Shown piece after piece: positions 1 to 8,621 of a stretch of DNA of 64,000 bases; within the stretch, counting starts at the first letter, position 1; every line of letters starts with the position of its first letter. Location: assembly GCF_009931435.1 (NCBI RefSeq), contig NZ_CP043414.1; one strand, written 5' to 3'. Origin of the DNA: Escherichia coli. GTDB lineage: Bacteria > Pseudomonadota > Gammaproteobacteria > Enterobacterales > Enterobacteriaceae. The notes under the pieces were generated by a model. The model ran no database searches. It worked only from the letters and a program-made list of their open reading frames with translations, and had not been told where the DNA came from. Both the position numbers and the translations under genes were made by a program.

Positions 1-681
1 CCATTCATCGCCAGAATAGGTCGCATGGAAACGCTGGGCGAGATTCACCTGATAGCAATCACCGCTGTGCAGATATTCCTGTACCTGGCGAAATTTTTCG
101 CCGTACAGCTCGCGGGTCATATTGGATTGCCAGTCGGAAGTGAGCGTGAAATCTTCCTGCGGCGAGAATTGCTGGCTTTCCAGCCAGGCCCGACGGGCAT
201 TGACATCATTATGACTCAGCAAAGAAACTGTTTGACGCTGGTGGTCGACAATGAGCGCCCAGTCGTAGATACCCACAGCCATATCCGGCAGAACGATATC
301 TTGCTGCGCAATTTCTGGCAGTGACTCAAAACGGCGGCCCAGATCGTAGCCAAACAACCCCAGCGCGCCGCCCTGAAATGGCAAATCTTCGTTATGCGCT
401 GGGCGAATGTCTGCGCGATCCAGCACCTGCTGGAGCACCTGTAGCGGGTCATCAGTGGTCGTTGTGCGTTTTTCGCTTTCACTAACAACGGTTTCTTTAG
501 CGAAAGTAGTCAAAGTACAAATCGGCTCGGCGACCACAATATCAAAGCGGCTATATGGATGATCGGCATAGCCGGAGTGTAAAAGCATCGCCCACGGCAG
601 GTGGCTTAAGCGGGAGAAATAAAATTCAGCGGCGTCCTGACGCCAGGGTAAAGTAATCACAGCGGGAGATAACGTCTTCAT
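1..681 (-). CDS. pabB: Aminodeoxychorismate synthase component I, N-terminal part (gene runs off the window start)
   Basis: Hand translation of the minus strand from ATG at 679..681 gives MKTLSPAVITLPWRQDAAEFYFSRLSHLPWAMLLHSGYADHPYSRFDIVVAEP..., open to position 1; not in ORF track because no stop lies in the window. Confidence 0.85.
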   Translation of the reverse strand, partial: MKTLSPAVITLPWRQDAAEFYFSRLSHLPWAMLLHSGYADHPYSRFDIVVAEPICTLTTFAKETVVSESEKRTTTTDDPLQVLQQVLDRADIRPAHNEDLPFQGGALGLFGYDLGRRFESLPEIAQQDIVLPDMAVGIYDWALIVDHQRQTVSLLSHNDVNARRAWLESQQFSPQEDFTLTSDWQSNMTRELYGEKFRQVQEYLHSGDCYQVNLAQRFHATYSGDEW

Positions 682-754
682 CAGTCCTGACTCTACTGGC
701 TAAGTGCCGGGTAGCATGAAATAATTAGCGCCAACAATTTAGCAGGAGTTAACA

Positions 755-934
755 ATGTTTGCAGGTTTACCTTCACTCACCCATGAACAGCAGCAAAAAG
801 CCGTCGAGCGGATCCAGGAACTGATGGCACAAGGGATGAGCAGCGGCCAGGCAATCGCGTTGGTGGCCGAAGAGCTGCGTGCCAACCACTCTGGCGAACG
901 AATTGTGGCGCGTTTTGAGGATGAAGACGAGTAA
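755..934 (+). CDS. yoaH: UPF0181 small protein YoaH (59 aa)
   Basis: Hand translation: [59 protein letters not shown]; SD-like AGGAG 7 bp upstream; below ORF-track size cutoff. Confidence 0.8.
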
Positions 935-1053
935 GACTCTAATCCGTATTGATTTCGTTATAGAAGCCGATGATTATTTGATTGTGAGAAAAAGGACGCT
1001 TTTTATATGTGGTTAAAAGCGTCCTGCCCCATTTATGCTGATGTAAATTTAAC

Positions 1054-1353
1054 TCAGACCAGTGCTTTTAGTTCTTCCTGCATATATGTTGAAAAGTATT
1101 CAGGATTTTTAATCACAGAGCGTTCACCAGACTCCATTTTTTTTGCCCATCCAACCATTTTTTCCGTGAACCCAGGGTTCCAGCCTTCCTGGTCAGCTCG
1201 CGCCGTAATATCAGCGGCACTCGCGGGTACTCCCAGTTCTTTCAAATATTTAAAGATTCCCTTCGCCGTGCTTTCATTCATCGAACTTGGTGTTGGCGCT
1301 GATACATCCATGGCACCAATGAAATCCAGGGCTTTATCTATTACAGCAGGCAT
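1054..1353 (-). CDS. yoaC: DUF1889 family protein YoaC
   Basis: ORF 1054..1413; start set at internal Met (MPAVIDKALDF...) to give 99 aa as in K-12. Confidence 0.75.
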   Translation of the reverse strand: MPAVIDKALDFIGAMDVSAPTPSSMNESTAKGIFKYLKELGVPASAADITARADQEGWNPGFTEKMVGWAKKMESGERSVIKNPEYFSTYMQEELKALV

Positions 1354-1773
1354 ATTCTTATCCTTAAAATTAACCATGTTATCGATAAGGCTATATATGA
1401 CCTTAATTTGCATCTAATATCAAAGGGATTATAACGATATGGCACGAGTTAACCTGTTGACATTCAGGTGTTTTAAAGGTAGCAGCTCATGGTGTGTTAT
1501 CCAGTAAGAGGGAGAAAATTAACGGTCAGTTCTCACGCTATAACCAGATGTTCAGCTAAGAAAGAAAACCAGAGATGCTAATCGAAGGGCGAACACAACG
1601 GCATTGTTATGTTTATTTATATAGTTAGTTTTATAGCTAAAATTGAAATTATAAAAATAAATAATGAATTAGCAGGAGCATCAACAGTAATATCTTAATC
1701 TCTGGTCGATTTATGTAAAACCGACCAGTATTATCGATAAATTATCGTCTGACTTATTTTGCTTCGATAAAGC

Positions 1774-2118
1774 TTACACCGCAGCCACAATCTTAATTTC
1801 AACTTTATACTTCGGGTTCATCAAACCCGCTTGTACCGTGCAGCGCACCGGCGCATGACCCGCGACAACCCAGGCATCCCACGCTTTATTCATCGCCGCG
1901 AAGTCGTTTTTATCAGCCAGGAAAATGGTGGCATCCAGAATGCTCGATTTATTGCTGCCCTGTTTTTCCAGCACGGCGTCAATCTGCGCCAGCGTGTTGG
2001 CGGTTTGCTCAAAGGCATTGGCGTCGAGGTTTTCCGGTACACCAGTGTAGTAGAGCGTGTTGTTGTGGATTACTACATCAGACCAGCGGGCTTCAGCATC
2101 GATACGAACGATAGTCAT
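1774..2118 (-). CDS. yoaB: RidA/YjgF-family protein YoaB
   Basis: ORF 1774..2166; start set at MTIVRIDAEARW (114 aa). Confidence 0.8.
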   Translation of the reverse strand: MTIVRIDAEARWSDVVIHNNTLYYTGVPENLDANAFEQTANTLAQIDAVLEKQGSNKSSILDATIFLADKNDFAAMNKAWDAWVVAGHAPVRCTVQAGLMNPKYKVEIKIVAAV

Positions 2119-2249
2119 CATTTTGTCCTCATTATCCTTCCATTTTCGTGCTGCAAAGACTGCCACAATGTGAGGTCGCCGTCACCACTTCAACTGGCGA
2201 AAGCGCCCTCATCCTGACATAATCCCTGTTCAAATCAACAGGGGGTAGT

Positions 2250-4160
2250 GTGACGGACGATTTTGCACCAGACGGTCAGCTGGCGAAAGCGATACCAGGC
2301 TTTAAGCCGCGAGAACCACAGCGTCAGATGGCGGTAGCCGTCGCCGGGGCGATAGATAAAAGCCAGCCGCTGGTGGTGGAGGCCGGAACCGGTACGGGCA
2401 AAACCTACGCTTACCTGGCCCCTGCGCTGCGGGCGAAAAAGAAAGTCATTATCTCGACCGGTTCAAAAGCGTTGCAGGATCAGCTCTACAGCCGCGATTT
2501 GCCAACGGTTTCAAAGGCGTTGAAATATACGGGCAACGTGGCGTTGCTGAAAGGGCGCTCTAACTACCTCTGCCTCGAACGTCTCGAACAGCAGGCGCTG
2601 GCGGGTGGCGATCTACCGGTACAGATTTTAAGCGATGTGATCCTGCTGCGCTCCTGGTCTAATCAAACAGTCGATGGTGATATCAGCACCTGCGTCAGCG
2701 TGGCGGAAGATTCACAGGCGTGGCCGCTGGTCACCAGCACCAACGACAACTGCCTTGGCAGCGACTGCCCGATGTATAAAGATTGCTTTGTGGTCAAAGC
2801 ACGCAAAAAAGCGATGGACGCCGATGTGGTGGTGGTAAACCATCATCTCTTTCTGGCGGATATGGTGGTGAAAGAGAGTGGATTTGGCGAACTGATCCCG
2901 GAAGCTGACGTGATGATCTTCGACGAAGCCCACCAACTGCCTGACATTGCCAGCCAGTATTTTGGTCAGTCACTCTCCAGTCGACAACTGCTCGACCTGG
3001 CAAAAGACATCACCATCGCCTACCGCACCGAATTAAAAGACACCCAGCAGTTACAAAAGTGCGCCGACCGCCTTGCCCAGAGCGCGCAGGATTTTCGCCT
3101 GCAATTAGGTGAGCCAGGTTATCGTGGCAACCTGCGCGAACTGTTAGCTAATCCGCAAATTCAGCGAGCATTTTTACTGCTCGATGACACCCTGGAACTT
3201 TGTTATGACGTGGCGAAACTGTCGCTGGGGCGTTCCGTCTTGCTGGATGCGGCATTTGAGCGCGCCACGTTGTATCGTACGCGGCTGAAACGGCTAAAAG
3301 AGATCAATCAGCCGGGCTACAGCTACTGGTACGAATGCACTTCGCGCCATTTTACTCTGGCACTCACGCCGCTTAGCGTGGCGGATAAATTCAAAGAATT
3401 AATGGCGCAAAAACCAGGTAGCTGGATCTTTACCTCAGCAACGCTGTCGGTGAATGACGATCTGCATCATTTTACCTCGCGGCTTGGCATTGAACAGGCA
3501 GAGTCGTTGCTGTTACCCAGCCCGTTTGATTACAGCCGCCAGGCGTTACTCTGTGTGCCGCGCAACCTGCCGCAAACCAATCAACCGGGCTCCGCACGGC
3601 AACTGGCGGCAATGTTGCGACCGATCATCGAAGCTAACAACGGTCGTTGTTTTATGCTTTGTACCTCGCACGCCATGATGCGCGATCTGGCCGAGCAGTT
3701 CCGCGCTACCATGACGCTTCCCGTGTTGTTGCAGGGGGAAACCAGCAAAGGCCAACTGCTACAGCAGTTTGTCAGCGCCGGTAACGCGCTGCTTGTGGCG
3801 ACCAGCAGTTTCTGGGAGGGGGTGGACGTGCGTGGCGATACATTGTCACTGGTGATTATCGACAAGTTGCCGTTTACCTCCCCGGATGACCCGTTGTTAA
3901 AAGCGCGCATGGAAGATTGCCGTTTGCGCGGTGGTGACCCGTTCGATGAAGTACAACTGCCGGATGCGGTCATTACTCTCAAGCAGGGAGTAGGGCGACT
4001 GATTCGCGACGCCGACGATCGAGGGGTTTTGGTGATTTGCGACAATCGGCTGGTGATGCGCCCTTACGGCGCGACGTTTCTCGCCAGTCTGCCGCCAGCG
4101 CCGCGCACCCGTGACATTGCCCGTGCGGTTCGTTTCCTTGCGATACCATCCTCCAGGTAA
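2250..4160 (+). CDS. yoaA: DinG-family ATP-dependent DNA helicase YoaA
   Basis: 636-aa ORF, GTG start; Walker A AGTGTGKT, DEAH-like box (MIFDEAHQL) and four-Cys Fe-S cluster region. Confidence 0.9.
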   Translation: MTDDFAPDGQLAKAIPGFKPREPQRQMAVAVAGAIDKSQPLVVEAGTGTGKTYAYLAPALRAKKKVIISTGSKALQDQLYSRDLPTVSKALKYTGNVALLKGRSNYLCLERLEQQALAGGDLPVQILSDVILLRSWSNQTVDGDISTCVSVAEDSQAWPLVTSTNDNCLGSDCPMYKDCFVVKARKKAMDADVVVVNHHLFLADMVVKESGFGELIPEADVMIFDEAHQLPDIASQYFGQSLSSRQLLDLAKDITIAYRTELKDTQQLQKCADRLAQSAQDFRLQLGEPGYRGNLRELLANPQIQRAFLLLDDTLELCYDVAKLSLGRSVLLDAAFERATLYRTRLKRLKEINQPGYSYWYECTSRHFTLALTPLSVADKFKELMAQKPGSWIFTSATLSVNDDLHHFTSRLGIEQAESLLLPSPFDYSRQALLCVPRNLPQTNQPGSARQLAAMLRPIIEANNGRCFMLCTSHAMMRDLAEQFRATMTLPVLLQGETSKGQLLQQFVSAGNALLVATSSFWEGVDVRGDTLSLVIIDKLPFTSPDDPLLKARMEDCRLRGGDPFDEVQLPDAVITLKQGVGRLIRDADDRGVLVICDNRLVMRPYGATFLASLPPAPRTRDIARAVRFLAIPSSR

Positions 4161-4217
4161 TTTGTGATGGAGTATGGTATGATGCGCGCCTTTTTATTGA
4201 TCTAAGCACGAAGACCC

Positions 4218-4913
4218 ATGCGAATTCTGGCTATCGATACCGCGACAGAGGCCTGCTCTGTCGCCCTGTGGAACGACGGCACTGTCAACGCTCATTTTGA
4301 GCTTTGCCCTCGTGAACATACTCAACGAATCTTACCGATGGTGCAGGATATCCTGACCACCAGCGGAACTTCCCTGACGGACATAAATGCTCTGGCTTAC
4401 GGGCGCGGCCCCGGTAGCTTTACCGGCGTGCGCATTGGTATTGGCATTGCGCAAGGGCTGGCGCTTGGCGCGGAATTACCGATGATTGGCGTCTCCACGC
4501 TAATGACGATGGCGCAAGGGGCGTGGCGCAAAAACGGCGCAACCCGCGTGCTGGCAGCCATTGACGCGCGAATGGGCGAAGTTTACTGGGCCGAATATCA
4601 GCGTGATGAAAATGGTATCTGGCACGGTGAAGAAACCGAAGCCGTACTCAAACCTGAACTCGTTCATGAACGGATGCAACAGCTTTCCGGCGAATGGGTG
4701 ACGGTAGGGACGGGCTGGCAAGCCTGGCCGGATCTCGGTAAAGAGAGCGGTTTGGCCCTGCGCGATGGCGAAGTGTTACTGCCCGCTGCAGAAGATATGC
4801 TGCCGATTGCTTGTCAGATGTTTGCCGAGGGTAAAACGGTGGCGGTGGAACATGCCGAACCGGTTTATTTACGTAACAACGTCGCATGGAAGAAACTTCC
4901 GGGCAAAGAATGA
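4218..4913 (+). CDS. tsaB: tRNA t6A37 threonylcarbamoyladenosine biosynthesis protein TsaB (YeaZ)
   Basis: 231-aa [21 protein letters not shown]... Confidence 0.9.
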
Positions 4914-4952
4914 ATCTTAAGAGTATGCCCTGAGAAAAAAAGGAGTCGCATC

Positions 4953-5534
4953 ATGGCGGTTCAAAAGAATGTTATCAAAGGCATACTGGCAGGTACGTTT
5001 GCGCTAATGCTCAGCGGTTGTGTCACTGTGCCGGACGCCATTAAAGGCAACAGTCCCACGCCGCAACAAGATTTAGTTCGGGTAATGAGTGCGCCGCAGC
5101 TGTACGTTGGTCAGGAGGCACGCTTTGGCGGCAAAGTGGTTGCGGTACAAAACCAGCAAGGGAAAACCCGCCTGGAAATTGCCACCGTACCGCTGGACAG
5201 TGGAGCCAGACCGACGCTGGGAGAACCTTCTCGCGGTCGCATTTATGCCGATGTGAACGGTTTTCTGGATCCGCTAGATTTTCGTGGACAATTGGTCACG
5301 GTAGTTGGACCAATCACCGGTGCGGTTGACGGCAAAATCGGCAACACGCCCTATAAATTTATGGTGATGCAGGTAACGGGTTACAAACGTTGGCATTTAA
5401 CCCAGCAGGTGATTATGCCGCCTCAGCCGATTGATCCATGGTTTTATGGCGGTCGTGGCTGGCCCTATGGCTACGGTGGATGGGGCTGGTATAATCCCGG
5501 CCCCGCGAGAGTACAAACTGTTGTAACTGAATAA
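4953..5534 (+). CDS. yeaY: Slp-family outer-membrane lipoprotein YeaY
   Basis: 193-aa ORF with lipobox LSGC signal peptide. Confidence 0.85.
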
Positions 5535-5555
5535 TTGCTTGTTTTTAAAGAAAAA

Positions 5556-5590
5556 GAAACAGCGGCTGGTCCGCTGTTTCTGCATTCTTA
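5556..5590 (+). terminator. Rho-independent terminator downstream of yeaY
   Basis: Hairpin gaaacagcgg-ctggt-ccgctgtttc followed by a T-rich tract; overlaps a FadR-like motif. Confidence 0.5.
5563..5579 (+). promoter_or_regulatory. Putative distal FadR operator of fadD
   Basis: GGCTGGTCCGCTGTTTC resembles FadR consensus (CTGGTC-GA-TGTT); about 87 bp upstream of the second site, matching the two-operator architecture known for fadD. Confidence 0.4.
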
Positions 5591-5649
5591 CGGTAAAGAT
5601 AAAAATAAATAGTGACGCGCTTCGCAACCTTTTCGTTGGGTAATTATCA

Positions 5650-5666
5650 AGCTGGTATGATGAGTT
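5650..5666 (+). promoter_or_regulatory. Putative proximal FadR operator of fadD
   Basis: AGCTGGTATGATGAGTT, FadR-like half-sites, 73 bp upstream of the fadD TTG start. Confidence 0.45.
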
Positions 5667-5738
5667 AATATTATGTTAACAGCATGTATATCATTTGGGG
5701 TTGCGATGACGACGAACACGCATTTTAGAGGTGAAGAA

Positions 5739-7424
5739 TTGAAGAAGGTTTGGCTTAACCGTTATCCCGCGGACGTTCCGACGGAGATCAACCCTGACCG
5801 TTATCAATCTCTGGTAGATATGTTTGAGCAGTCGGTCGCGCGCTACGCCGATCAACCCGCGTTTGTGAATATGGGGGAGGTGATGACCTTCCGCAAACTG
5901 GAAGAACGCAGTCGCGCGTTTGCCGCTTATTTGCAACAAGGGTTGGGACTGAAGAAAGGCGATCGCGTTGCGTTGATGATGCCTAATTTATTGCAATATC
6001 CGGTGGCGCTGTTTGGCATTTTGCGTGCCGGGATGATCGTTGTAAACGTTAACCCGTTGTATACCCCGCGTGAGCTGGAGCATCAGCTTAACGATAGCGG
6101 CGCATCAGCGATTGTTATCGTGTCTAATTTTGCCCACACTCTGGAAAAAGTGGTTGATAAAACCGCCGTTCAGCACGTTATTCTGACCCGTATGGGCGAT
6201 CAGCTATCCACGGCAAAAGGCACGGTAGTCAACTTCGTTGTTAAATACATCAAGCGTCTGGTGCCGAAATACCATCTGCCAGATGCCATCTCATTTCGCA
6301 GCGCACTGCATAACGGCTACCGGATGCAGTACGTCAAACCCGAACTGGTGCCAGAAGATTTAGCTTTCCTGCAATATACCGGCGGTACCACTGGTGTGGC
6401 GAAGGGCGCGATGCTGACTCACCGCAATATGCTGGCGAATCTGGAACAAGTTAACGCGACTTATGGGCCGCTGTTGCATCCGGGCAAAGAGCTGGTGGTG
6501 ACGGCACTGCCGCTGTATCACATTTTTGCTCTGACCATTAACTGCCTGCTGTTTATTGAACTGGGTGGGCAGAACCTGCTTATCACTAACCCGCGCGATA
6601 TTCCGGGGTTGGTAAAAGAGTTAGCGAAATATCCGTTTACCGCGATAACCGGCGTTAACACCTTGTTCAATGCGTTGCTGAACAATAAAGAGTTCCAGCA
6701 GCTGGATTTCTCCAGTCTGCATCTTTCTGCAGGCGGTGGTATGCCTGTTCAACAAGTGGTGGCTGAACGTTGGGTGAAACTGACCGGACAGTATCTGCTG
6801 GAAGGTTATGGCCTGACCGAGTGTGCGCCGCTGGTCAGCGTTAACCCGTATGATATTGATTATCATAGTGGTAGCATCGGTTTGCCGGTGCCGTCGACGG
6901 AAGCCAAACTGGTGGATGATGATGATAATGAAGTACCACCGGGTCAACCGGGTGAGCTTTGTGTCAAAGGACCGCAGGTGATGCTGGGTTACTGGCAGCG
7001 TCCGGATGCTACCGATGAAATCATCAAAAATGGCTGGTTACACACCGGCGATATCGCGGTGATGGATGAAGAAGGATTCCTGCGCATTGTCGATCGTAAA
7101 AAAGACATGATTCTGGTTTCCGGTTTTAATGTCTATCCCAACGAAATTGAAGATGTCGTCATGCAGCATCCTGGCGTACAGGAAGTCGCAGCTGTTGGCG
7201 TACCTTCCGGCTCCAGTGGTGAAGCGGTGAAAATCTTCGTAGTGAAAAAAGATCCATCGCTTACCGAAGAGTCACTGGTGACCTTTTGCCGCCGTCAGCT
7301 CACGGGCTACAAAGTACCGAAGCTGGTGGAGTTTCGTGATGAGTTACCGAAATCTAACGTCGGAAAAATTTTGCGACGAGAATTACGTGACGAAGCGCGC
7401 GGCAAAGTGGACAATAAAGCCTGA
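5739..7424 (+). CDS. fadD: Long-chain fatty acid--CoA ligase
   Basis: ORF 5673..7424; start set at in-frame TTG ([13 protein letters not shown]...) for 561 aa; AMP-binding motif [12 protein letters not shown]. Confidence 0.85.
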
Positions 7425-7443
7425 GCGTTAAGTCAGTCGTCAG

Positions 7444-7469
7444 ACGCCGGTTAATCCGGCGTTTTTTTT
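7444..7469 (+). terminator. Rho-independent terminator of fadD
   Basis: acgccgg-ttaat-ccggcgt stem followed by T8. Confidence 0.6.
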
Positions 7470-7493
7470 GACGCCCACTAAAGAGAATACAAT

Positions 7494-8621
7494 TTGAATT
7501 ACCAAATGATTACCACGGACGATGCGCTGGCTTCTTTGTGTGAAGCCGTCCGTGCCTTTCCGGCGATAGCCCTGGATACTGAATTTGTTCGTACGCGCAC
7601 CTATTACCCGCAACTGGGTCTAATTCAACTTTTTGATGGTGAGCATCTGGCGCTAATTGATCCTCTCGGGATCTCCGACTGGTCACCGCTGAAAGCGATA
7701 CTGCGCGATCAGTCCATCACAAAATTTCTCCATGCGGGCAGTGAAGATCTGGAAGTGTTCCTCAATGTCTTTGGCGAATTACCACAACCCCTGATTGACA
7801 CGCAAATCCTTGCTGCCTTCTGCGGACGCCCGATGTCATGGGGTTTTGCTTCCATGGTGGAAGAGTATTCCGGCGTTACGCTGGACAAGAGTGAATCGCG
7901 CACCGACTGGCTGGCCAGACCGCTGACTGAACGTCAGTGTGAATACGCAGCGGCGGATGTCTGGTATCTGTTACCGATCACCGCAAAGCTTATGGTAGAA
8001 ACGGAGGCCTCCGGCTGGCTACCTGCGGCGCTGGATGAATGCCGCCTGATGCAAATGCGTCGTCAGGAAGTCGTTGCACCGGAAGATGCCTGGCGTGATA
8101 TCACCAATGCCTGGCAGTTACGCACACGCCAGCTAGCCTGTTTGCAACTGTTAGCCGACTGGCGACTGCGCAAGGCGCGGGAGCGCGATTTGGCAGTGAA
8201 CTTTGTTGTGCGTGAAGAGCATTTGTGGTCGGTAGCACGTTATATGCCGGGAAGTCTTGGCGAACTGGATAGCCTGGGCTTATCCGGTAGCGAAATCCGC
8301 TTTCACGGTAAAACGCTGCTGGCGCTGGTGGAAAAAGCGCAGACATTGCCGGAAGAGGCCTTACCGCAGCCGATGCTTAACCTGATGGACATGCCGGGTT
8401 ATCGTAAAGCGTTTAAAGCGATTAAGTCGCTGATTACTGACGTGAGCGAAACACACAAGATCAGCGCCGAATTGCTGGCATCGCGTCGGCAAATCAACCA
8501 GCTGCTGAACTGGCACTGGAAACTGAAACCGCAGAACAATTTGCCGGAGCTGATTTCCGGCTGGCGTGGTGAGCTGATGGCGGAAGCATTACACAATTTA
8601 TTGCAGGAATATCCACAGTAA
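7494..8621 (+). CDS. rnd: Ribonuclease D
   Basis: 375-aa ORF MNYQMITTDDALASLCEAV...; DEDD 3-5 exonuclease plus HRDC architecture. Confidence 0.9.
   Translation: MNYQMITTDDALASLCEAVRAFPAIALDTEFVRTRTYYPQLGLIQLFDGEHLALIDPLGISDWSPLKAILRDQSITKFLHAGSEDLEVFLNVFGELPQPLIDTQILAAFCGRPMSWGFASMVEEYSGVTLDKSESRTDWLARPLTERQCEYAAADVWYLLPITAKLMVETEASGWLPAALDECRLMQMRRQEVVAPEDAWRDITNAWQLRTRQLACLQLLADWRLRKARERDLAVNFVVREEHLWSVARYMPGSLGELDSLGLSGSEIRFHGKTLLALVEKAQTLPEEALPQPMLNLMDMPGYRKAFKAIKSLITDVSETHKISAELLASRRQINQLLNWHWKLKPQNNLPELISGWRGELMAEALHNLLQEYPQ

What the first reader, a model, noticed from the sequence alone, without database searches (positions are those of the whole stretch)
755..934. 59-aa yoaH divergent from pabB, absent from the ORF track
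A conserved small protein (UPF0181) starts 74 bp from the pabB start on the opposite strand, so the two share a compact divergent promoter region (682..754).
Basis: partly seen in the sequence, partly recalled or inferred. Interest (0 to 1): 0.15.

Follow-up and report, generated by a model that had tools for sequence, protein, structure and literature searches.

The report
Known small gene yoaH beside pabB
This is the already-annotated E. coli gene yoaH, a real and strongly conserved 59-residue protein of still unknown function. It was missed only because it is one residue shorter than a 60-aa ORF cut-off, and its start overlaps the promoter of the neighbouring folate-pathway gene pabB.

Summary
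Window 755..934 (+) is an ATG-started 59-codon ORF with a good ribosome-binding site. pabB starts at 681 on the other strand: 74 bp start to start, with a 73-bp spacer. The ORF is yoaH (Pfam UPF0181, NCBIfam YoaH equivalog) and is annotated in 5,424 of 5,426 complete E. coli genomes.

In 80 genomes of other species the frame is intact and dN/dS is about 0.02-0.08. pabB is the divergent neighbour in all of them, and also in Proteus.

The "shared promoter region" idea is broadly right but its bounds are too narrow. The pabB start site mapped in K-12 falls at window 729, its -10 lies in the yoaH leader, and its -35 lies in yoaH codons 2-4. Synonymous sites there are unusually conserved. yoaH's own promoter is unmapped; the best candidate is a conserved extended -10 at 717-725.

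The protein is predicted to be a two-helix hairpin with an acidic disordered tail. Its function is unknown. Its Vibrio homologue is the last gene of a cluster matching vxrABCDE.

Verdict: ordinary and already known, so interest is low.

The parts
755..934 (+). yoaH coding sequence (59 aa plus TAA stop); UPF0181 / YoaH family protein
   Evidence: ORF; PF03701, 100.9 bits against a cut-off of 23.5; NF003476 equivalog, 114.2 against 72; annotated yoaH in E. coli; frame intact in 81 of 81 sequences, dN/dS 0.02-0.08
744..748 (+). Shine-Dalgarno AGGAG, 6 nt upstream of the yoaH ATG
   Evidence: Sequence. The overlapping GGAGT at 745-749 is conserved in 66 of 69 distinct upstream sequences
717..725 (+). 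Conserved TGAAATAAT, an extended -10-like element (TGn + AATAAT). It is the predicted yoaH promoter, giving a predicted start site near 732. Not experimentally mapped
   Evidence: Exact in 53 of 69 and relaxed in 63 of 69 distinct upstream sequences, at a fixed distance from the yoaH ATG while the distance to pabB varies from 61 to 143 bp. The reading as a promoter is inference
729..729 (-). pabB transcription start site, mapped in K-12 and transferred by coordinate
   Evidence: Kim et al. 2012 Table S1: NC_000913.2 position 1892781, 334 reads, 48-nt leader. The listed 51-nt sequence equals the reverse complement of window 729-779. Window and K-12 are identical across 704-754
736..741 (-). pabB -10 hexamer TAAATT (at -12..-7 of the mapped start); lies within the predicted yoaH leader
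   Evidence: Position derived. The form TAnATT is kept in 64 of 69 relatives (+ strand AATTTA 30, AATGTA 30, AATCTA 4)
759..764 (-). pabB -35 region CTGCAA (17-bp spacer), inside yoaH codons 2-4
   Evidence: Position derived. TTGCAG is kept in 62 of 69 relatives. Third-position entropy is 0.38 bits for codons 2-6 against 1.22 for codons 7-50
682..754 (.). 73-bp pabB-yoaH spacer. It holds the pabB leader and SD, the predicted yoaH promoter, and the yoaH leader and SD
1..681 (-). 5' part of pabB (aminodeoxychorismate synthase component 1), cut by the window start
   Evidence: Anth_synt_I_N, E=1.6e-27; K-12 annotation; 97% identity to K-12 PabB
993..1025 (.). GC-rich hairpin between the convergent genes yoaH and yoaC. 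On the - strand it is followed by UUUUU (the yoaC terminator). It is the only strong stable hairpin downstream of yoaH, and its + strand U-tract is poor
   Evidence: z = -1.6 on the + strand, -2.8 on the - strand.

Best explanation
Window 755..934 is the chromosomal gene yoaH of an Escherichia coli-like genome, and it is a real, translated small protein. This is shown by family models, annotation and purifying selection.

yoaH is transcribed divergently from pabB, and the two core promoters interleave rather than sharing an empty spacer. The pabB start site mapped in K-12 falls at window 729 (- strand). Its -10 lies in the yoaH leader (741-736) and its -35 in yoaH codons 2-4 (764-759). The yoaH promoter is most likely the conserved extended -10 TGAAATAAT at 717-725, which predicts a start near 732 and a leader of about 23 nt carrying AGGAG. 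On this reading each -10 sits at +5..+10 of the other transcript. RNA polymerase could then occupy only one promoter at a time. That step is inferred.

The protein is predicted to be a cytoplasmic two-helix hairpin (helices 10-25 and 30-46, joined by the conserved GMSSG turn) with a disordered acidic tail. It has no signal peptide, no catalytic motif and no significant similarity to any solved fold. I therefore commit to the view that it acts by binding a partner protein, as a small adaptor or regulator, and not as an enzyme (inferred, about 55%). The only functional lead is that its Vibrio homologue is the fifth gene of a cluster matching the cell-wall-damage operon vxrABCDE.
For: Identity:
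- PF03701 E=2.8e-29; NF003476 equivalog.
- yoaH is annotated under the match in 5,424 of 5,426 E. coli genomes and in K-12.

Selection:
- All 6 differences from K-12 are synonymous.
- 81 of 81 relatives have an ATG and an intact frame.
- Median pN/pS is 0.087 and dN/dS is 0.02-0.08.
- YoaH is 100% identical in E. albertii, where the PabB N-terminus is 82% identical.

Synteny:
- pabB is divergent in 80 of 80 loci and in Proteus.

pabB promoter:
- Kim et al. 2012 mapped the start site (PMC3415461).
- Its elements are conserved.
- Synonymous sites in yoaH codons 2-6 show excess conservation.

yoaH promoter:
- TGAAATAAT is conserved in 53-63 of 69 upstream sequences, at a fixed distance from the ATG.

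Protein:
- The AF2 model has two helices with pLDDT 94-97 in the core and below 50 in the tail.
- The conserved core is LTHEQQQxAVExIQxLMAxGMSSGEAIxxVAxELR.

Vibrio link:
- The V. cholerae homologue is 50% identical over 48 aa.
- It sits after HK(DUF3404), RR, DUF2861 and TraF_2 genes.
- This matches the published five-gene vxr operon VCA0565-0569, whose fourth product resembles an outer-membrane transport protein (PMC4441509; PMC7695739).

Expression and phenotype hints:
- yoaH mRNA is listed in the MazF regulon (PMC5001579).
- Salmonella yoaH deletions have competitive indices of 0.05-0.16 on muskmelon and in LB (PMC12767474).
Against: - No start site near yoaH was reported by Kim et al. The only one assigned to yoaH is 518 nt upstream, inside pabB, with 27 reads.
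- The consensus promoter scan found nothing in 550-1500. By my count the mapped pabB promoter scores 7 of 12, below the scan's 9 of 12 threshold, so the scan is insensitive here.
- TGAAATAAT also lies at +5..+13 of the pabB transcript, so its conservation could serve pabB instead.
- vxrE mutants have only minor phenotypes, and vxrCDE are dispensable for VxrAB signalling.
- Outside Enterobacterales, yoaH homologues are not next to pabB. The pairing is therefore probably regulatory or historical, not a sign of a shared pathway.
Confidence: 0.8

Rival explanations
1. The ORF is not a gene. The region is conserved only because it carries the pabB promoter and leader, and the 59-codon frame is incidental.
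For: The mapped pabB promoter does overlap the first codons of the ORF. ORFs of this size are common by chance.
Against: The constraint extends over the whole ORF and is frame-specific. Codon-position entropy is 0.27/0.15/1.12 bits, dN/dS is 0.02-0.08, and synonymous sites are near saturation at median pS 0.66. The frame is intact in 81 of 81 sequences. The family also exists in Vibrio and in other taxa with no pabB nearby. Pfam and NCBIfam models match at E=1e-29 to 1e-33.
Confidence: 0.01
2. YoaH is a minimal helix-turn-helix-like DNA-binding protein. It could act, for example, as a small regulator on the interleaved pabB/yoaH promoter region.
For: The helix-G-M-S-S-G-helix spacing matches a helix-turn-helix turn. 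The best PDB profile hits are DNA-binding domains: 2jml, a MerR-type domain, at E=0.046, and the Mu transposase Ibeta domain at E=0.41. Sub-threshold Pfam hits in several members go to HTH families (HTH_63, RsmI_C). Its position beside a promoter it could regulate fits.
Against: None of these matches is significant. Only two helices are predicted, and they are long (16-17 residues) and modelled as a hairpin. The protein is strongly acidic overall, with an E/D tail that some genera extend to about 30 residues, which is unusual for a DNA binder. Homologues in other taxa sit in unrelated contexts.
Confidence: 0.15
3. YoaH/VxrE is an envelope-stress accessory factor. It could be analogous to CpxP or ZraP, which carry LTXXQ motifs and modulate their sensor kinases, and it would survive in Enterobacterales as an orphan after loss of VxrABCD.
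For: - The Vibrio homologue ends a cluster matching the vxrABCDE cell-wall-damage operon.
- Two lineages fuse it to the signal-peptide protein DUF2861 (VxrC-like).
- UPF0181-like repeats occur in secreted proteins, one of which carries a Peptidase_M23 domain.
- YoaH begins with L-T-H-E-Q, an LTXXQ-like motif.
Against: - Bona fide YoaH proteins have no signal peptide.
- No member gives an LTXXQ or Metal_resist hit among the 25 families most members match, even at E up to 10.
- vxrCDE are dispensable for VxrAB-dependent regulation, and the vxrE colonisation defect is minor, CI 0.70.
- No VxrA-D homologue lies in the window.
- The fused ORFs keep an internal SD and ATG, so the small protein may still be made separately.
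Confidence: 0.1
4. The strong fitness defect of Salmonella yoaH deletion mutants is a cis effect on pabB expression, that is, a folate-precursor shortage, and not loss of the YoaH protein.
For: The pabB -35 and upstream promoter DNA lie inside yoaH, so replacing the ORF with a cassette changes the DNA immediately upstream of the pabB core promoter. The defect appears only when cells grow: on muskmelon and in LB, not in PBS.
Against: Both cassette orientations gave the same defect: CI 0.16 and 0.15 on muskmelon, 0.08 and 0.05 in LB. The paper flags orientation-dependent polar effects for other genes but not for yoaH. pabB itself is not among that paper's hits; it appears only in the yoaH row label.
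Confidence: 0.4

Closest known systems
UPF0181 / YoaH family (Pfam PF03701; NCBIfam NF003476, PRK05114), E. coli K-12 yoaH (b1811)
   Same: Same gene. The protein is identical to K-12 YoaH. Neighbours and orientation are the same, and both family models score far above their cut-offs.
   Different: Nothing of substance. There are six synonymous nucleotide differences from K-12 in the ORF and one substitution in the spacer.
VxrE (VCA0569), last gene of the Vibrio cholerae vxrABCDE (WigKR) cell-wall-damage operon
   Same: Homologous small protein: 50% identity over 48 colinear residues, in the same Pfam family. Both lack an assigned function.
   Different: In Vibrio it follows the kinase, regulator, DUF2861 and TraF_2 genes in one cluster. 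Here it stands alone, divergent from pabB, with no VxrA-D homologue in the window. Equating the V. cholerae UPF0181 gene with VxrE rests on matching the five-gene architecture to the papers. I recall, but did not check, that UniProt names this protein VC_A0569.
Overlapping divergent (bidirectional) bacterial promoters, e.g. the symmetric -10 class described by Warman et al. 2021 (recalled from memory, not read here)
   Same: Two divergent transcripts arise within a few base pairs, and their polymerase footprints must overlap.
   Different: In the symmetric class the two -10 elements coincide and the start sites are about 18 bp apart. Here the -10 elements are separate (720-725 and 736-741), and each lies downstream of the other's start site. 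The starts are about 3 bp apart if the yoaH prediction is right. Only the pabB start is experimental.
CpxP / Spy / ZraP (LTXXQ-motif periplasmic helical-hairpin stress proteins)
   Same: Small helical hairpins with an L-T-x-x-Q motif at a helix start. CpxP and ZraP are encoded alongside, and modulate, an envelope-stress two-component system, much as vxrE sits with vxrAB.
   Different: Those proteins are secreted, while YoaH has no signal peptide. No YoaH family member shows an LTXXQ or Metal_resist match among the families listed. Only the distant repeat proteins P0139 and P0206 show such hits. This is a resemblance, not membership.

Membership tests
UPF0181 / YoaH family (PF03701, NF003476) | Scores above the curated cut-off of the family models | tested here: met
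   PF03701 100.9 bits against 23.5; NF003476 equivalog 114.2 bits against 72, covering 1-59 of 60
UPF0181 / YoaH family (PF03701, NF003476) | Single-domain protein of about 50-65 aa with the conserved core LTHEQQQxAVExIQxLMAxGMSSGEAIxxVAxELR | tested here: met
   59 aa. All nearly invariant columns of a 37-member alignment are present (Q13, A16, E18, I20, L23, G27, A33, I34, V37, A38, R42)
UPF0181 / YoaH family (PF03701, NF003476) | Orthologous position in Enterobacterales (divergent from pabB) | tested here: met
   80 of 80 genome loci plus Proteus hauseri; K-12 annotation
UPF0181 / YoaH family (PF03701, NF003476) | Evolves as a protein-coding frame | tested here: met
   dN/dS 0.02-0.08, third-position variation dominant, no frame breaks in 81 sequences
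vxrABCDE-type operon member (VxrE) | Protein homologous to V. cholerae VxrE | tested here: met
   50% identity, E=3e-17 pairwise; same Pfam family
vxrABCDE-type operon member (VxrE) | Encoded in one cluster with the DUF3404 histidine kinase, an OmpR-type regulator, DUF2861 and TraF_2 genes | tested here: not met
   tblastn of the four V. cholerae products finds nothing in the 64-kb window. The neighbours here are pabB and yoaC
Helix-turn-helix DNA-binding proteins (MerR-like / HTH clan) | Significant sequence or fold match to an HTH domain, with at least three packed helices | tested here: not met
   Best PDB profile hit E=0.046; Pfam HTH hits have E of 0.013 or more and fall below cut-off; only two helices are predicted; Foldseek gives nothing with E below 1
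CpxP/Spy/ZraP LTXXQ family | Match to the LTXXQ or Metal_resist models, and a signal peptide | tested here: not met
   Neither model appears among the families listed for the 37 members scanned at E up to 10. The N-terminus [12 protein letters not shown] has no hydrophobic signal sequence
Symmetric bidirectional promoters (shared -10, start sites about 18 bp apart) | Two mapped divergent start sites flanking one shared -10 element | tested here: inconclusive
   Only the pabB start is mapped. The predicted yoaH -10 is a separate element, so the geometry does not fit, but the yoaH start site is needed to decide

The most novel reading that the evidence does not exclude
The tightly interleaved, conserved pabB/yoaH promoters could form a mutually exclusive switch. 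YoaH, the orphan enterobacterial counterpart of Vibrio VxrE, could itself be needed for normal growth, as the Salmonella deletion phenotype (CI 0.05-0.16) would suggest if it is not a cis effect on pabB. That would give a function to a family that is uncharacterised in both E. coli and Vibrio.
Probability: 0.1. Interest if true: 0.45.

Novelty: already known. Interest (0 to 1): 0.1.

Why it matters
As a finding it matters little. yoaH is annotated in essentially every E. coli genome and belongs to a curated family, and it was flagged only because it falls one residue under a 60-aa ORF threshold. It is a useful reminder that length cut-offs hide real small genes.

Three residual points could interest someone working on small proteins or on folate-gene regulation:
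- The pabB promoter is embedded in the yoaH leader and first codons, so any yoaH knockout must be checked for effects on pabB.
- Salmonella yoaH deletions have a strong, unexplained growth defect.
- The family is the same as Vibrio VxrE. As far as the papers read here show, this link has not been used to study either protein.

Tried and rejected
- The consensus promoter/terminator scan of 550-1500 found no promoter and only one weak terminator-like site inside pabB. It is uninformative because, by my count, the experimentally mapped pabB promoter also falls below its threshold.
- Rfam on window 1-2600 at E up to 1 gave no RNA family.
- PDB sequence search with YoaH alone returned only designed repeat proteins and tautomerases at non-significant E. 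The profile search gave a best E of 0.046.
- Foldseek against PDB gave nothing with E below 1.
- The afdb50 library was unavailable.
It was repeated with a 12-member alignment.
- I looked for a mapped yoaH start site in other datasets. Thomason 2015, Kroeger 2012 and Li 2014 are not held. The stored Cappable-seq supplements have no positions near the locus. The Conway 2014 supplements are not held.
- Literature searches for yoaH, UPF0181 and b1811 gave only high-throughput mentions.
- The idea that YoaH is CpxP-like was tested and is not supported for true family members.
- One alignment member hits Sf6_terminase at E=3.9e-08. I could not trace it among the ten most divergent members. It is probably a chimeric C-terminus, and I did not pursue it.
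- MazF processing at the ACA just upstream of the ATG is not a conserved feature: ACA occurs at -3..-1 in only 8 of 69 upstream sequences.

Full report
**1. Observation**

Window 755..934 on the + strand is an ATG-initiated ORF of 59 codons ending in TAA. It translates to [59 protein letters not shown]. AGGAG lies at 744-748, 6 nt before the ATG. On the - strand an ORF running off the window start begins with ATG at 681. It is the N-terminus of PabB (Anth_synt_I_N, E=1.6e-27; 97% identical to K-12 PabB). With the ORF tool's default 60-aa minimum, nothing is listed over 690..1000, which explains the absence from an ORF track. ORF length alone is not informative: 29 ORFs of 30 aa or more overlap the first 3 kb.

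**2. Identity**

- The protein matches Pfam PF03701 (UPF0181) at E=2.8e-29 (100.9 bits, cut-off 23.5).
- It matches the NCBIfam equivalog NF003476 "YoaH family protein" at 114.2 bits (cut-off 72).
- A 1-kb query around it matches 5,424 of 5,426 complete E. coli genomes at 95-99% identity, with pabB, yoaH and yoaC annotated under the match.
- In a K-12 MG1655 record the gene order is sdaA, nudL, pabB (-), yoaH (+), yoaC (-), yoaB (-), yoaA (+), with yoaH at the homologous position.
- The first 8 kb of the window are at most 99.0% identical to any genome in that collection. The source is E. coli or a very close relative, but not one of those strains.

**3. Is the frame conserved?**

- Against K-12, the 180-bp ORF has six differences, all synonymous.
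- A scan of one genome per species returned 80 loci from Enterobacteriaceae and Dickeya. All have ATG and an uninterrupted frame of 59-89 aa. The longer forms simply have longer acidic tails.
- Nei-Gojobori comparisons with the window give dN/dS of 0.02-0.08, with synonymous sites near saturation (median pS 0.66, pN 0.057).
- Mean entropy at codon positions 1, 2 and 3 is 0.27, 0.15 and 1.12 bits.
- YoaH is 100% identical in E. albertii, where the PabB N-terminus is only 82% identical.

The gene is real and under strong purifying selection.

**4. Synteny**

- pabB is the divergent upstream neighbour in all 80 loci, with estimated spacers of 61-143 bp, and also in Proteus hauseri.
- Outside Enterobacterales the neighbour differs. 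One GC-43% contig has SUI1, UPF0181 and lolCDE-like genes. Enterovibrio has TraF_2, UPF0181 and NAD synthase. Vibrio has the cluster described in section 7.
- The pabB pairing is therefore specific to one order, which argues against a deep functional coupling to folate synthesis.
- yoaC occurs only in the Escherichia loci. In most other genera yoaB ends 4-30 bp from the yoaH stop, convergent.

**5. Promoters**

The consensus scan found no sigma-70 promoter in 550-1500. Published 5'-end mapping does place one there. Kim et al. 2012 (PMC3415461, Table S1) list a pabB start site at NC_000913.2 position 1892781 (+), with 334 reads and a 48-nt leader. The gene coordinates in that table are yoaH 1892576-1892755 and pabB from 1892829. 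Window position x therefore equals 1893510 minus the K-12 coordinate, which puts the start site at window 729 on the - strand. The listed 51-nt sequence is exactly the reverse complement of window 729-779.

- The -10 is therefore TAAATT at 741-736.
- With a 17-bp spacer, the -35 is CTGCAA at 764-759, inside yoaH codons 2-4.
- By my count that is 7 matches of 12, below the scan's threshold of 9. This is why the scan missed it.
- The elements are conserved in relatives: TAnATT in 64 of 69 distinct sequences and TTGCAG (+ strand) in 62 of 69.
- Synonymous sites of yoaH codons 2-6 are far less variable than those of codons 7-50 (third-position entropy 0.38 against 1.22 bits). The four-fold-degenerate GCA codon 3 is invariant, while other Ala codons score 1.07-1.96 bits.

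This is good evidence for a nucleotide-level constraint on the start of yoaH, as the pabB promoter would impose. A constraint from translation initiation is an alternative explanation.

For yoaH itself, that dataset gives only a weak start site 518 nt upstream, inside pabB (window 237, 27 reads). The best candidate for a proximal promoter is the block TGAAATAAT at 717-725.

- It reads as an extended -10 (TG, one base, AATAAT).
- It is exact in 53 and near-exact in 63 of 69 distinct upstream sequences.
- It keeps a fixed distance from the yoaH ATG while the distance to the pabB ATG varies.
- It predicts a start near 732 and a leader of about 23 nt.

If this is right, the two start sites are about 3 bp apart and diverging. 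Each -10 then lies at +5..+10 of the other transcript, so the polymerase footprints would overlap almost completely. From this I infer that only one promoter can be occupied at a time. The caveat is that the same block lies at +5..+13 of the pabB mRNA and could be conserved for pabB.

**6. Downstream**

A stable hairpin at 993-1025 is followed by UUUUU on the - strand, making it the yoaC terminator. It is the only strong hairpin downstream of yoaH, but on the + strand it lacks a good U-tract. No Rfam family matches window 1-2600.

**7. The protein and its relatives**

The AlphaFold2 model, built on a 37-sequence alignment, has two helices (10-25 and 30-46) joined by the conserved QGMS turn. 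pLDDT is 94-97 in the core and below 50 in the acidic tail. Comparisons with solved structures were uninformative:

- Sequence search found no relative.
- The best profile hit was a MerR-type DNA-binding domain at E=0.046.
- Foldseek gave nothing with E below 1.

An exhaustive HMMER search of 1.84 billion representatives found only 94 clusters with E of 0.001 or better, so the family is narrow. Members with names are Enterobacterales and Vibrionaceae.

In V. cholerae the homologue is 53 aa and 50% identical over 48 residues. It follows a DUF3404 histidine kinase, an OmpR-type regulator, a DUF2861 protein and a TraF_2 protein. This matches the published five-gene operon vxrABCDE (VCA0565-0569), whose fourth product resembles outer-membrane transport proteins (PMC4441509; PMC7695739). 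YoaH is therefore the enterobacterial homologue of VxrE. VxrE is also uncharacterised:

- Its deletion gives a minor colonisation defect (CI 0.70).
- vxrCDE are dispensable for VxrAB-dependent regulation.
- One preprint states that the role of VxrDE is still unknown.

Two divergent lineages encode DUF2861::UPF0181 fusions with a signal peptide, although an internal SD and ATG persist. UPF0181-like repeats occur in secreted proteins of Armatimonadota and of a candidate-phylum bacterium. The latter carries a Peptidase_M23 domain. These observations hint at an envelope connection. However, true YoaH proteins lack a signal peptide, and none shows an LTXXQ or Metal_resist match among the families listed at E up to 10.

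**8. Literature on yoaH**

There are only high-throughput mentions:

- It is listed in the MazF regulon table (PMC5001579). ACA sits directly upstream of the ATG in the window, but this is not conserved (8 of 69).
- It is named among notable differentially expressed genes in a knockout RNA-seq study (PMC12356324).
- It was a hit in an overexpression screen for oxidant resistance (PMC8228696).
- In S. Typhimurium, transposon insertions and both single-gene deletion constructs were outcompeted: CI 0.16 and 0.15 on muskmelon, 0.08 and 0.05 in LB, and 0.77 and 1.42 in PBS (PMC12767474).

Because the pabB promoter extends into yoaH, the Salmonella phenotype may be a cis effect on pabB. The equal effect of both cassette orientations argues somewhat against a simple polar effect. 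I recall, but did not verify, that this deletion collection retains the first and last ~30 nt of each ORF. If so, the pabB -35 would be spared but the DNA upstream of it replaced.

**9. Verdict**

The finding is correct and ordinary: a known, annotated small gene hidden by a length cut-off. The protein's function remains unknown. I consider a small cytoplasmic helical-hairpin binding protein the most likely mode of action, with an HTH-like DNA binder and an envelope-stress accessory factor as rivals. Novelty: already known. Interest: low.

Noticed in passing
window 935-1773: A low-GC stretch (0.34-0.42, against 0.51-0.55 in the flanking genes) carries yoaC (DUF1889). It is present only in the Escherichia loci. 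In most other Enterobacteriaceae yoaB ends 4-30 bp from the yoaH stop. It looks like a lineage-specific insertion between yoaH and yoaB.
   Followed up: partly
window 1054-1413 (-): The yoaC ORF is 119 aa from the first ATG, but RefSeq K-12 annotates 99 aa starting at Met21, and the DUF1889 model covers residues 21-116. Kim et al. list a start site 56 nt upstream of the longer ORF's start (window ~1469), so the longer form would be transcribed.
   Followed up: no
window 237 (+), with TTGACA at 200-205: Kim et al. 2012 report a weak start site (27 reads) antisense inside pabB and assign it to yoaH with a 518-nt leader. A perfect TTGACA lies upstream, but no good -10 is visible.
   Followed up: partly
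L082 ~837-906, L090 ~3431-3500, L093 ~5931-6000 (Vibrio loci, upstream of the yoaH homologue vxrE): A conserved hairpin GGCTCC-loop-GGAGCC encloses the Shine-Dalgarno sequence directly before the ATG. It is preceded by a promoter-like TTGC...TATAGT. This suggests that vxrE has its own promoter and a structured leader in addition to operon read-through.
   Followed up: no
L092 1012-2118; L095 3054-4151: Two divergent lineages encode a single ORF fusing the signal-peptide protein DUF2861 (VxrC-like) to a UPF0181 domain. It follows the kinase and regulator genes directly, and no TraF_2 gene is present. An internal SD and ATG are retained at the UPF0181 start.
   Followed up: partly
proteins P0154, P0139, P0206: UPF0181-like modules occur as tandem repeats in large secreted proteins. 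P0154 (Candidatus Gottesmanbacteria, 1401 aa) carries Peptidase_M23. P0139 and P0206 have LTPEQ repeats with weak Metal_resist or LTXXQ hits.
   Followed up: partly
[not shown]
   Followed up: no
window 1-8000: The window is at most 99.0% identical to any of 5,426 complete E. coli genomes over its first 8 kb, and 98.0% over 500-1500. The source is a lineage not represented in that collection, or a close relative such as Shigella.
   Followed up: no
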